From Thermoanaerobaculia bacterium (GTDB taxonomy: Bacteria > Acidobacteriota > Thermoanaerobaculia > UBA5066 > Gp7-AA6), in assembly GCA_035506175.1 (NCBI GenBank), contig DATJPZ010000049.1, forward strand, positions 13,356-77,355: a stretch of 64,000 nucleotides of DNA, in the 5' to 3' direction. A program made the translations under genes and the position numbers. The notes below the pieces were generated by a model that ran no database searches, was not told the DNA's origin, and saw nothing but the letters and a program-made list of their open reading frames with translations. Of this stretch, positions 34,629 to 35,930 are shown piece after piece (within the stretch, counting starts at the first letter, position 1; each line of letters starts with the position of its first letter).

Positions 34629-35330
34629 ATGAAGACCATCGAACTTTCGGTCGAGAAGCGCTCGACCATCGGCAAGAACGAGGCCCGCCGCGAGCGGGCC
34701 GCCGGCCGCATTCCGGCCGTGGTGTACGGCGCCGGCAAGCCCAACGTGCCCATCTCGGTGGACCGCAAGGCCCTGTCGGACGTGTTCCGCGAGGGCGCCG
34801 GGGAAAACGCGATCTTCCTGTTGAAGCTCTCCGGCTCGGACCAGAGCCGGCACGCGATGATCCGGGAGATGCAGCGGGATCCGGTGTCGCGCAGGCCGCT
34901 CCACATCGACTTCGTCCGCGTCCTGATGGACGTCAAGATCACGGTCAAGGTGCCGATCGAGGTCCTCGGCGTCGCGCGCGGCGTCAAGACGGACGGCGGC
35001 ATCCTGGACGTCGTCACCCGCGAGGTCGAGATCGAGTGTCTGCCCGGGAACATCCCGGCGCACCTGGGCGTGGACGTGGCCGACCTCGGGATCGGCGACG
35101 CCATCCGCGTCTCCCAGGTCACGGCCCCGGAGGGCGTGCGCATCGTCGACAACCCGGAGAAGGTCGTCGTCCACGTCGCGCATCCGACGCGCGAAGAGGA
35201 GCCGGTCGCCGCCGCGGAGGGCGCCGCCGAGCCCGCAGAGCCCGAAGTGCTCAAGAAGGGCAAGGCCGTCTCCGAGGAAGAGGGCGCCGAGGAGAAGGGC
35301 GAGAAGAAGGAGAAGGAAAAGGAGAAGTAG
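34629..35330 (+). CDS. rplY: 50S ribosomal protein L25 / general stress protein Ctc
   Basis: MKTIELSVEKR...IPAVVYG L25 N-domain, lysine/glutamate-rich C-tail; start could also be GTG 34620. Confidence 0.85.
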   Translation: MKTIELSVEKRSTIGKNEARRERAAGRIPAVVYGAGKPNVPISVDRKALSDVFREGAGENAIFLLKLSGSDQSRHAMIREMQRDPVSRRPLHIDFVRVLMDVKITVKVPIEVLGVARGVKTDGGILDVVTREVEIECLPGNIPAHLGVDVADLGIGDAIRVSQVTAPEGVRIVDNPEKVVVHVAHPTREEEPVAAAEGAAEPAEPEVLKKGKAVSEEEGAEEKGEKKEKEKEK

Positions 35331-35333
35331 CCT

Positions 35334-35930
35334 CTGCGCGTCATCGTCGGCCTGGGCAACCCCGGGGACGATTACGCGGAGACCCGTCACAACGCCGGGT
35401 TCCGCGTGGTCGAGGCGCTGGCGGCGGAGGAAGGAATCCGGATCCGCTCGCGCGAGTGTTCGTCGAGGGTGGGCCGGGGAAGGGTCGGCGGGGAACCGGT
35501 GCTGCTCGCCCTTCCGCAGACGTACATGAACGCCTCCGGCGAGGCCGTTTCGGCTCTTTGCCAGAAATACAGCGTCGAACCCACGGAGCTCTGCGTCGTC
35601 GTCGACGACATCGATCTCCCGGTCGGGGCGCTGCGCCTGCGGGCGCGCGGCTCGGCGGGAGGGCAGAAGGGCCTGAAGTCGATCATCGCGCATCTCGGGA
35701 CGACGGAGTTTCCGAGGCTGCGCGTCGGGATCCGCGGCGAGCGCTACTCGCGCGACCGCGACCTGGCCGACTACGTGCTGGAGCCGGTGGCGAAGGCCGA
35801 ACGCGAAGCCTTCGCCGACAGTGTCGGGAGAGCCGCCGAGGCGGTGCGGCTGTGGGTCACGCAAGGAATCGACGCCGCGATGCGGCGAGCGAACGTTTCC
35901 CCCTCTCCGGGCGATCACGACCCGGATTGA
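35334..35930 (+). CDS. pth: Peptidyl-tRNA hydrolase, probable CTG start
   Basis: VIVGLGNPG...ETRHNAGF catalytic N-terminus lies upstream of the first canonical start (GTG 35406); CTG 35334 is 3 nt after the rplY TAG with an AAGGAG SD 9 nt upstream. Confidence 0.8.
   Translation: [198 protein letters not shown]

What the first reader, a model, noticed from the sequence alone, without database searches (positions are those of the whole stretch)
35319..35410. pth: catalytic N-terminus lies before the first canonical start; rplY and pth share a frame separated by one TAG
Peptidyl-tRNA hydrolase needs the N-terminal GLGNPG...TRHNAGF segment, which includes the catalytic His. Here that segment ([24 protein letters not shown]) is encoded between the rplY TAG stop (35328-35330) and the first canonical start (GTG 35406). 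There is no ATG/GTG/TTG in the interval. CTG 35334 sits 3 nt after the stop with an AAGGAG SD 9 nt upstream. The alternatives are CUG (or AUC) initiation, or UAG readthrough giving an L25-Pth fusion; CUG initiation is the most parsimonious.
Basis: partly seen in the sequence, partly recalled or inferred. Interest (0 to 1): 0.65.

Follow-up and report, generated by a model that had tools for sequence, protein, structure and literature searches.

The report
Conserved CUG start codon of pth
In this soil Acidobacteria lineage the essential enzyme peptidyl-tRNA hydrolase almost certainly starts at a rare CUG codon three bases after the stop of the ribosomal protein L25 gene. The arrangement is identical in every relative examined, and most gene callers miss it.

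Summary
rplY (34629-35330, TAG) and pth share a frame, and no ATG/GTG/TTG lies between the TAG and GTG 35406. The 24 codons in between encode the indispensable GLGNPG...TRHNAGF segment.

It is not an assembly error. 49 of 49 species-level Thermoanaerobaculia genomes, and 119 of 119 metagenome matches found with that codon left free, carry AAGGAGAAR-TAR-NNN-CTG. CTG never varies, although CTC is the commonest Leu codon in the gene. The 3-nt spacer is unconstrained, and the stop alternates between TAG and TAA.

In other bacteria ATG, GTG or TTG sits at or next to the equivalent codon. One acidobacterium has TGA-CCT-TTG.

Best reading, about 0.8: fMet initiation at CUG 35334, directed by the AAGGAG inside the rplY tail and probably coupled to rplY termination, giving a low Pth:L25 ratio.

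Rivals:
- ATC 35343: weak.
- L25-Pth fusion by readthrough: weak.
- Truncated protein from GTG 35406: rejected.

NCBI already annotates CTG in some relatives and ATC in others. 87 of the 120 nearest public protein clusters are truncated calls.

This is a new member of a known kind and moderately interesting. No direct protein evidence exists.

The parts
33523..33551 (+). Promoter-like site ahead of prs, the likely start of the prs-rplY-pth-rpsF-rpsR operon. A terminator-like hairpin lies just upstream at 33478-33505.
   Evidence: Consensus scan only. No terminator-like site lies between rplY and pth.
33561..34520 (+). prs (ribose-phosphate pyrophosphokinase), TTG start, TAG stop
   Evidence: ORF. 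The same gene carries Pribosyltran Pfam domains in relatives.
34629..35330 (+). rplY (L25/Ctc-type, 233 aa) with a Lys/Glu-rich C-terminal tail, ending at TAG
   Evidence: PF01386 and PF14693 matches. The stop is TAG in 41 and TAA in 8 of 49 loci.
35319..35324 (+). Shine-Dalgarno AAGGAG inside the last codons of rplY, 9 nt upstream of the CTG
   Evidence: The GGAG core is present in 48/49 loci, although the rest of the K/E tail varies in sequence.
35328..35330 (+). rplY stop codon TAG
   Evidence: TAG is an ordinary stop in this window, ending 14 of 35 rough gene calls.
35331..35333 (+). 3-nt spacer (CCT): unconstrained in sequence, fixed in length
   Evidence: 14 different triplets among 49 loci and 14 among 119 metagenome matches. 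The length is always 3 nt.
35334..35336 (+). CTG, the proposed initiation codon of pth
   Evidence: 49/49 and 119/119 CTG. It is one of only 2 codon-invariant columns among 51. It lies at or next to the ATG/GTG/TTG of outgroups.
35334..35930 (+). pth (Pth1-type peptidyl-tRNA hydrolase, 198 aa if started at CTG), TGA stop
   Evidence: Full-length PF01195 match, 3e-64. PDB Pth proteins align from residues 1-3.
35343..35345 (+). ATC, the alternative non-canonical start that NCBI uses in some relatives
   Evidence: P0015, P0017 and P0088 begin MVGLGNPG and map to the ATC of L018, L019 and L035. There is no SD at a usable distance (18 nt from AAGGAG).
35349..35405 (+). Catalytic N-terminal segment GLGNPG...TRHNAGF (Asn9, His19)
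   Evidence: Amino acids are invariant with abundant synonymous third-position changes, so this frame is translated.
35406..35408 (+). GTG: the first canonical start codon, but an internal Val codon. It is the false start chosen by the gene callers behind the JGI, ENA and Logan entries.
   Evidence: It is GTG in only 23/49 loci, with GTC in 23, GTT in 2 and GCG in 1. 87/120 public clusters are truncated calls.
35949..36359 (+). rpsF, ATG start preceded by GGAGGAG, showing that the lineage uses a canonical SD
   Evidence: The pth-rpsF spacing varies (-4, 18, 19, 21 nt) among the same loci.

Best explanation
pth is translated from the CUG at 35334-35336, read by initiator fMet-tRNA. The product is a 198-aa Pth that begins [11 protein letters not shown].

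The ribosome is positioned by the AAGGAG embedded in the last codons of rplY, 9 nt upstream. Because the rplY stop lies only 3 nt before the CUG, initiation is most likely coupled to termination of L25 synthesis. This could occur by termination-reinitiation, or by SD-held 30S or 70S ribosomes.

CUG is a poor start, about 1-2% of AUG in E. coli. The arrangement would therefore deliver a small, fixed fraction of Pth per L25 from one mRNA. The complete absence of TTG, GTG or ATG at this position suggests that weakness is the selected property.

Shown:
- the anatomy of the junction;
- its conservation;
- translation of the N-terminal codons;
- positional equivalence to canonical starts elsewhere.

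Inferred:
- use of fMet-tRNA;
- coupling to rplY termination;
- the dosage rationale.
For: 1. Need for an upstream start. The PF01195 match begins at V 35340. Codons 6-23 are amino-acid invariant with free synonymous variation. They contain the Asn and His that align with catalytic Asn10 and His20 of E. coli Pth (offsets, plus established knowledge).
2. No error. 49/49 genome loci at 56-98% amino-acid identity share AAGGAGAAR-TAR-NNN-CTG-CRY-GNN-ATY. L139, a separately deposited contig, matches the window exactly across this junction.
3. Unbiased scan. A metagenome scan with both triplets after the stop left free gave CTG in 119/119 matches (102 distinct contexts). The spacer took 14 different forms.
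4. Codon-level selection. CTC is the commonest Leu codon in the gene (409 against 275 CTG), and other invariant-Leu columns mix CTC, CTG, CTT and TTG. Only 2 of 51 amino-acid-invariant degenerate columns are codon-invariant among 144 distinct CDS, and the CTG is one of them. For column 1 the invariance rests, because the extraction required CTG.
5. Positional homology. Most outgroups have ATG/GTG/TTG five codons before GLGNPG, exactly where the CTG lies. L065 has TGA-CCT-TTG, L057 has TGA-TCC-GTG one codon closer to GLGNPG, and the distant Thermoanaerobaculia locus L074 has TAA-GGG-CTG one codon further from it.
6. N-terminal length. Solved Pth proteins start within 0-3 residues of this N-terminus.
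7. Natural variants.
   - L082 has a different upstream region and an ATG two codons before the CGC.
   - In L207 a 12-codon insertion displaces the Leu, which is then CTC, while the CTG next to the SD is kept.
   - L205 and L206 keep TAA-NNN-CTG even though codon 5 is GTG.
8. Spacing. A +3 nt stop-start gap is the classic galT-galK coupling geometry (PMC12548453). It also lies within the -8 to +10 nt range taken as predictive of termination-reinitiation (PMC10666635).
9. Independent annotation. NCBI independently annotates the CTG as the start in L081 and L083.
Against: - No protein-level or ribosome-profiling evidence exists for any member of the clade.
- CUG is a very poor start in E. coli: 0.86-2% of AUG and 0.024% of annotated bacterial starts (PMC11497404; bioRxiv 10.1101/063800). 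Pth is essential in bacteria (own knowledge), so sufficiency of output is assumed rather than shown.
- Codon invariance alone is not unique. A second Leu codon in the gene (CTT, 35556-58) is equally invariant for unknown reasons.
- Coupling to rplY termination cannot be separated from independent SD-driven initiation with sequence data.
- The sequences are phylogenetically related, so the counts overstate the number of independent observations.
Confidence: 0.8

Rival explanations
1. Initiation occurs at the ATC three codons downstream (35343), giving MVGLGNPG. NCBI annotates some relatives this way.
For: ATC is a near-cognate start with about the same strength as CUG in E. coli (bioRxiv 10.1101/063800). 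It is conserved as ATC in 48 and ATT in 1 of 49 loci. NCBI chose it in L018, L019 and L035.
Against: - ATC is the expected Ile codon in a 71% GC genome, so its conservation is uninformative.
- It lies 18 nt from the AAGGAG and no purine-rich tract sits closer.
- The two codons between CTG and ATC vary like coding sequence, with CGC/CGT/CAC and GCG/GCC/GCA/GTC and no indels.
- Outgroup starts align at or next to the CTG, not with the ATC.
- This start would not explain the invariance of the CTG.
Confidence: 0.07
2. Stop-codon readthrough produces an L25-Pth fusion protein. Pth activity is delivered as a C-terminal extension of the ribosomal protein, either alone or in addition to CUG initiation.
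For: - The two genes are in frame with exactly one stop and one spacer codon in every locus of the clade.
- The K/E-rich L25 tail would make a flexible linker.
- The spacer length never changes, whereas the pth-rpsF spacer does.
Against: - The stop alternates between TAG and TAA in the unbiased genome set, so there is no codon-specific recoding.
- TAG is an ordinary stop in this window.
- The base after the stop is A, C, G or T, so there is no conserved readthrough context.
- Under readthrough the Leu codon would be free to change to CTC or TTG, and it never does.
- No fused orthologue lacking the stop was seen. The 120 nearest clusters are at most 212 aa and carry PF01195 only.
- More distant lineages are out of frame, for example L058, L062 and L075.
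Confidence: 0.04
3. The real product is the 174-aa protein from GTG 35406, as the gene callers behind the JGI, ENA and Logan entries report. Alternatively, the gene is a decaying pseudogene.
For: GTG 35406 is the first canonical start. 87 of the 120 nearest public protein clusters are called this way.
Against: - That protein would lack the GLGNPG and TRH segment with the catalytic His and Asn.
- The 24 upstream codons are under strong purifying selection at amino-acid level.
- The GTG itself is present in only 23/49 species.
Confidence: 0.01
4. A sequencing or assembly error hides a canonical ATG/GTG or a frameshift at 35331-35345.
For: The window appears to come from a metagenome assembly. 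Some related long-read MAG loci do carry frameshifts, namely L048 and L204.
Against: The identical junction is found in 49 genomes from many projects and in 119 metagenome contigs. L139 matches the window exactly across the junction. No ATG/GTG/TTG occurs in any frame from 30 nt upstream of the CTG to its first base in 48 loci.
Confidence: 0.01

Closest known systems
infC (IF3) AUU start codon
   Same: Both are non-canonical, weak initiation codons on a translation-factor gene. Both are conserved across a large clade and are not replaced by a canonical codon.
   Different: The codon here is CUG (first-position mismatch) rather than AUU. Autoregulation through IF3 discrimination is established for infC (own knowledge; IF3's role in PMC9723500) but is only conjecture here. 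The pth start is also embedded 3 nt after an upstream stop.
galT-galK translational coupling with +3 nt stop-start spacing in E. coli (reviewed in PMC12548453; distance rule in PMC10666635)
   Same: Both have a +3 nt gap between the upstream stop and the downstream start. In both, the SD lies inside the upstream coding sequence and the genes share a transcript.
   Different: galK uses a canonical start. Here the restart codon is CUG, and coupling has not been measured.
Experimentally characterised CUG initiation in E. coli (bioRxiv 10.1101/063800; PMC11497404)
   Same: The codon is the same. N-terminal Met from initiator tRNA is expected, and low efficiency is expected.
   Different: Those are reporter or in vitro systems, and natural CUG starts are about 0.024% of annotations. 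This case is a natural, deeply conserved one on a gene that is essential in bacteria (own knowledge).
prs-ctc(rplY)-pth(spoVC) gene cluster of Bacillus and many other bacteria (own knowledge)
   Same: The gene order prs, L25/Ctc, pth is the same, followed here by rpsF and rpsR.
   Different: In the other lineages examined, pth has ATG, GTG or TTG and variable spacing from rplY.

Membership tests
Pth1 peptidyl-tRNA hydrolase (PF01195) | Full-length match to the family profile | tested here: met
   PF01195, 3e-64, profile positions 1-183 of 183 when translated from 35331. Only positions 23-183 are covered from GTG 35406.
Pth1 peptidyl-tRNA hydrolase (PF01195) | Catalytic Asn10, His20 and Asp93 equivalents (E. 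coli numbering, established knowledge) | tested here: met
   N9, H19 and D91 are invariant in 49 species. The alignment to 2pth runs from residue 2 to chain residue 3.
Non-canonical (CUG) bacterial initiation codon | No canonical start is available upstream of indispensable residues | tested here: met
   The same holds in 49/49 relatives.
Non-canonical (CUG) bacterial initiation codon | A Shine-Dalgarno sequence at functional spacing | tested here: met
   AAGGAG lies 9 nt upstream. The GGAG core is present in 48/49 loci within an otherwise variable tail.
Non-canonical (CUG) bacterial initiation codon | Nucleotide-level conservation of the codon beyond what the amino acid requires | tested here: met
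   49/49 and 119/119 CTG. Other Leu columns are mixed. Only 2 of 51 columns are codon-invariant.
Non-canonical (CUG) bacterial initiation codon | Positional equivalence to canonical starts of orthologues | tested here: met
   ATG/GTG/TTG lies five codons before GLGNPG in most outgroups. L065 has TGA-CCT-TTG.
Non-canonical (CUG) bacterial initiation codon | N-terminal (f)Met peptide or an initiating-ribosome footprint at the codon | not testable with these tools
   No proteomic or Ribo-seq data are available for this clade.
Translational coupling by termination-reinitiation | Stop-start distance within about -8 to +10 nt on one transcript | tested here: met
   The spacer is +3 nt in all loci. 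No promoter-like or terminator-like site lies between the genes. The distance rule is from PMC10666635.
Translational coupling by termination-reinitiation | Downstream translation depends on upstream translation and on stop position | not testable with these tools
   This needs reporter constructs.
Programmed stop-codon readthrough or recoding (fusion protein) | A specific conserved stop codon and downstream context | tested here: not met
   TAG and TAA interchange. The +4 base and the spacer triplet are unconstrained.
Programmed stop-codon readthrough or recoding (fusion protein) | Related genomes carry a sense codon or fused ORF at the site | tested here: not met
   No fused ORF occurs in 49 loci. 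The 120 nearest clusters are at most 212 aa with PF01195 only.
IF3-sensed regulatory start (infC-like) | The non-canonical start is never replaced by a canonical codon within the clade | tested here: met
   0 of 168 junctions carry ATG, GTG or TTG, although CTG-to-TTG is a single transition.
IF3-sensed regulatory start (infC-like) | Expression responds to IF3 level | not testable with these tools
   This needs experiments. infC and the initiator tRNA are not in the window (one search finds only tRNA-Gln).

The most novel reading that the evidence does not exclude
The CUG is not merely tolerated. It is maintained as a deliberately weak, IF3-sensitive start, analogous to infC AUU. On this reading Pth synthesis is set by L25 translation and rises when initiation fidelity drops.

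Thermoanaerobaculia may also use CUG starts far more often than other bacteria. recG in the same window also lacks a canonical start ahead of its conserved N-terminal motif. It has a CTG at 52148 that is conserved in two other lineages.
Probability: 0.2. Interest if true: 0.7.

Novelty: new member of a known kind. Interest (0 to 1): 0.45.

Why it matters
Natural CUG starts are very rare in bacterial annotation, about 0.024% of starts, and few are well supported. This one is on a gene that is essential in bacteria (own knowledge). It is invariant across every relative examined and is never upgraded to TTG, GTG or ATG. It therefore offers a clean natural system for two questions: how a ribosome reinitiates on CUG next to a stop codon, and whether weak starts set protein ratios within operons.

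There is also a practical consequence. 87 of the 120 nearest public Pth protein clusters from this clade are truncated calls that lack the catalytic His. NCBI uses two different non-canonical starts for the same junction. Annotation of this gene in Thermoanaerobaculia MAGs therefore needs correcting.

Tried and rejected
- Assembly error: rejected by 168 concordant junctions and by L139, which matches the window exactly across the junction.
- UAG-specific recoding: rejected because TAG and TAA alternate and TAG ends many genes in the window.
- Conserved RNA structure around the start: RNAalifold gave -9.3 kcal/mol with almost no covariation. The single-sequence fold had z = -1.67, so nothing convincing emerged.
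- Rfam: only RNase P RNA and a tRNA in the window, and no leader or element near rplY-pth.
- Literature: searches for a described pth CUG start, or for start-codon usage in Thermoanaerobaculia, found nothing relevant in the held library.
- Other genes with missing starts: Pfam on 8 stop-to-stop ORFs with long open 5' stretches flagged only recG.
- Depletion of competing canonical starts: the region around the CTG is nearly free of ATG/GTG/TTG in all frames. This is largely a by-product of the purine-only K/E tail and the conserved coding sequence, so I do not count it as evidence.
- Absence of TGA as the rplY stop: 0/49 in the genome set. This may be lineage inertia. The metagenome pattern forced TAR, so that set cannot be used for this point.

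Full report
**Observation**

The window region reads ...AAG GAA AAG GAG AAG TAG CCT CTG CGC GTC ATC GTC GGC CTG GGC AAC CCC GGG....
- rplY runs from ATG 34629 to TAG 35328-35330. It matches the L25 N-terminal and TL5 C-terminal domains.
- The same frame continues through CCT, CTG (35334), CGC, GTC and ATC (35343) to the first canonical start, GTG 35406, and ends at TGA 35928-35930.
- Translated from 35331, the ORF matches Pfam Pept_tRNA_hydro over the whole profile (1-183 of 183, 3e-64), with profile position 1 at V 35340. From GTG 35406 the match only begins at profile position 23.
- AAGGAG lies at 35319-35324, 9 nt before the CTG.

**Organism and code**

The window has 71.5% GC. The nearest relatives are MAGs labelled Thermoanaerobaculia or Acidobacteriota. 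In a rough GC3-based gene list, stops are TGA 18, TAG 14 and TAA 3, and prs just upstream ends in TAG. TAG is therefore an ordinary stop here.

**Not an error, and not peculiar to this genome**

A protein-based scan of one genome per species returned 48 Thermoanaerobaculia-type loci. Their pairwise Pth identity ranges from 56 to 98%. With the window, all 49 show AAGGAGAA(G/A) - TA(G/A) - NNN - CTG - C(G/A)(C/T) - G(C/T)N - AT(C/T).
- The stop is TAG in 41 and TAA in 8.
- The spacer takes 14 different triplets.
- The CTG is invariant.

I then scanned metagenome contigs with a pattern that fixed the SD, the stop and the downstream codons but left both triplets after the stop free. All 119 matches (102 distinct sequence contexts) have CTG in the second triplet, and again 14 different spacers. 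L139, a separately deposited JGI contig, carries a pth coding sequence identical to the window's and contains window bases 35001-35400 exactly.

**The N-terminal codons are translated**

Codons 6-23 (GLGNPG..Y..TRHNAGF) are amino-acid invariant across the 49 species, while their third positions vary freely. Examples are GGC/GGT/GGA/GGG, AAC/AAT, CCG/CCC/CCT, ACG/ACC/ACT/ACA and CGC/CGG/CGT/CGA.

These residues include the Asn and His that align with catalytic Asn10 and His20 of E. coli Pth (offsets; established knowledge of the family).

The GTG at 35406 that gene callers use is GTG in only 23 of 49 species, with GTC in 23, GTT in 2 and GCG in 1. A protein starting there is neither conserved nor catalytically plausible.

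**Which codon starts the protein**

Four lines of evidence point to the CTG.
1. **Codon-level selection.** CTC is the commonest Leu codon in pth (409 CTC against 275 CTG), and the other invariant-Leu columns mix CTC, CTG, CTT and TTG.
   - Among 49 sequences only 4 of 48 amino-acid-invariant degenerate columns are codon-invariant.
   - Among 144 distinct CDS only 2 of 51 are, and the CTG is one of them.
   - That extraction required CTG, so the invariance of column 1 rests.
2. **The boundary of constraint.**
   - The triplet before the CTG varies at all three positions, like non-coding sequence.
   - The two triplets after it vary like codons: CGC, CGT or CAC for Arg/His, and GCG, GCC, GCA or GTC for Ala/Val.
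   - There are no indels.
3. **Positional homology.**
   - In most outgroups the ATG, GTG or TTG lies five codons before GLGNPG, exactly where the CTG lies.
   - The acidobacterial locus L065 has the same architecture with a canonical codon, TGA-CCT-TTG.
   - L057 has TGA-TCC-GTG one codon closer to GLGNPG.
   - A distant Thermoanaerobaculia locus, L074 (50% identity), has TAA-GGG-CTG one codon further from it.
   - Solved Pth structures begin within 0-3 residues of this N-terminus.
4. **Natural variants.**
   - In L082, pth sits behind unrelated upstream DNA and has an ATG two codons before the CGC. Similarity to the rplY-linked form begins at the codon after the CTG.
   - In L207 a 12-codon insertion follows CTG-CGC-GCC. 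The displaced Leu is now CTC, while the CTG next to the SD is kept.
   - In L205 and L206 codon 5 is GTG, which callers then pick, yet TAA-NNN-CTG persists.

**ATC alternative**

NCBI annotates ATC as the start in L018, L019 and L035, and CTG in L081 and L083. Several points count against the ATC.
- It is 18 nt from the SD.
- It is the default Ile codon in this GC-rich genome.
- It does not align with outgroup starts.
- It leaves the invariance of the CTG unexplained.

**Readthrough alternative**

The fixed in-frame geometry is compatible with an L25-Pth fusion, but several observations argue against it.
- TAG and TAA interchange.
- The base after the stop is unconstrained.
- No fused orthologue was seen in 49 loci, and the 120 nearest protein clusters are all at most 212 aa with PF01195 only.
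- A translated Leu codon would not need to stay CTG.
- More distant lineages have the two genes out of frame.

I cannot exclude a trace of fusion product.

**Mechanism**

The Lys/Glu tail of L25 is encoded by a purine-only tract containing several GGAG motifs. The last motif, AAGGAG, is nearly invariant (GGAG in 48/49) while the rest of the tail varies.

A stop-start gap of +3 nt is the geometry of the classic galT-galK coupled pair (PMC12548453). It also lies within the -8 to +10 nt range taken as predictive of termination-reinitiation (PMC10666635).

The spacer length is 3 nt in all 168 junctions, whereas the pth-rpsF spacer takes values of -4, 18, 19 and 21 nt in the same genomes. No promoter-like or terminator-like site separates rplY and pth. 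A terminator-like hairpin (33478-33505) and a promoter-like site (33523-33551) precede prs. No conserved RNA structure was detected around the start.

I therefore infer that ribosomes finishing L25, or 30S subunits held by the SD, initiate on the CUG with fMet-tRNA. In E. coli, CUG supports about 1-2% (bioRxiv 10.1101/063800) or 0.86% (PMC11497404) of AUG-level initiation. That would give a low Pth:L25 ratio.

A single transition, CTG to TTG, would create a much stronger start without changing the protein. It is never seen in the clade, which suggests the weakness is selected. Whether this serves simple dosage or an IF3-sensitive control like infC is conjecture.

**Comparison with what is known**

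Non-canonical starts, CUG initiation and +3 nt coupling are all known. CUG accounts for about 0.024% of annotated bacterial starts (PMC11497404). I found no description of a CUG start for pth, or of start-codon usage in Thermoanaerobaculia, in the held literature.

NCBI's pipeline has already placed the start on this CTG in some MAGs. The point is therefore implicit in public annotation, though inconsistently. Among the 120 nearest protein clusters the calls break down as follows:
- 87 are truncated;
- 23 start at an incidental GTG at codon 5;
- 3 start at ATC;
- 4 begin MR(A/L/V)IV at the CTG position, and the two I checked against DNA (P0002, P0105) start on the CTG.

I class this as a new member of a known kind.

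**Limits**

All the evidence is comparative. The sequences are related, so the counts are not independent events. A second codon-invariant Leu (CTT, 35556-58) shows that invariance can arise for reasons I do not understand. No direct evidence of the protein N-terminus exists.

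Noticed in passing
window 52109-54136 (recG); CTG 52142 and 52148, GTG 52178; loci L203, L204: recG follows the TAG of the upstream cNMP-binding/FHA gene in the same frame. Its conserved N-terminal motif LRDPVSRIPGVG lies before the first canonical start, GTG 52178, which is the Val of GVG. Relatives have ATG at various upstream positions. L203 and L204, like the window, have no canonical start there but share a CTG at the Leu of LRDP. NCBI annotated an ATC start in L203. 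This is a possible second CUG start in the lineage, but no SD is evident.
   Followed up: partly
window 35553-35560 (inside pth): GCT CTT TG(C/T) is fixed at nucleotide level. The rare Leu codon CTT is present in 143/143 aligned distinct CDS, and the third base of the preceding codon is always T. T-ending codons are only about 10% of the gene. It is the only codon-invariant column apart from the CTG start, and its function is unknown.
   Followed up: partly
window 35328-35330 and loci L001-L048: The rplY stop is TAG or TAA in 49/49 genomes and never TGA. Yet TGA is the commonest stop in the window and is the pth stop in all 49. The acidobacterial outgroups L057 and L065 use TGA. This may be lineage inertia, or avoidance of the out-of-frame GTG that AAG-TGA would create next to the weak start.
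   Followed up: no
protein clusters P0001-P0120: 87 of the 120 nearest public Pth clusters are truncated calls of 149-180 aa that lack the catalytic N-terminus. Across all 120 clusters at least ten different N-termini are annotated for what is, in every junction whose DNA I read except L082 and L207, the same sequence.
   Followed up: yes
L082 1-180; L207 150-320: Two structural variants were seen. L082 is an 883-nt contig in which pth is preceded by AT-richer DNA with a terminator-like T-run and has an ATG start. L207 is a contig with a 12-codon insertion directly after CTG-CGC-GCC. Either could be real rearrangements or assembly artefacts.
   Followed up: partly
L048 and L204 (long-read MAG contigs): Apparent frameshifts occur in pth (L048, ORF of 175 codons from the CTG to the first in-frame stop) and in recG (L204). 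Indel errors in those assemblies are the likely cause.
   Followed up: no
window 49923-50317 (+); 32612-32687 (+): Bacterial RNase P RNA class A (274 bits) and a tRNA-Gln(TTG). These are the only Rfam or ARAGORN hits in the window.
   Followed up: no
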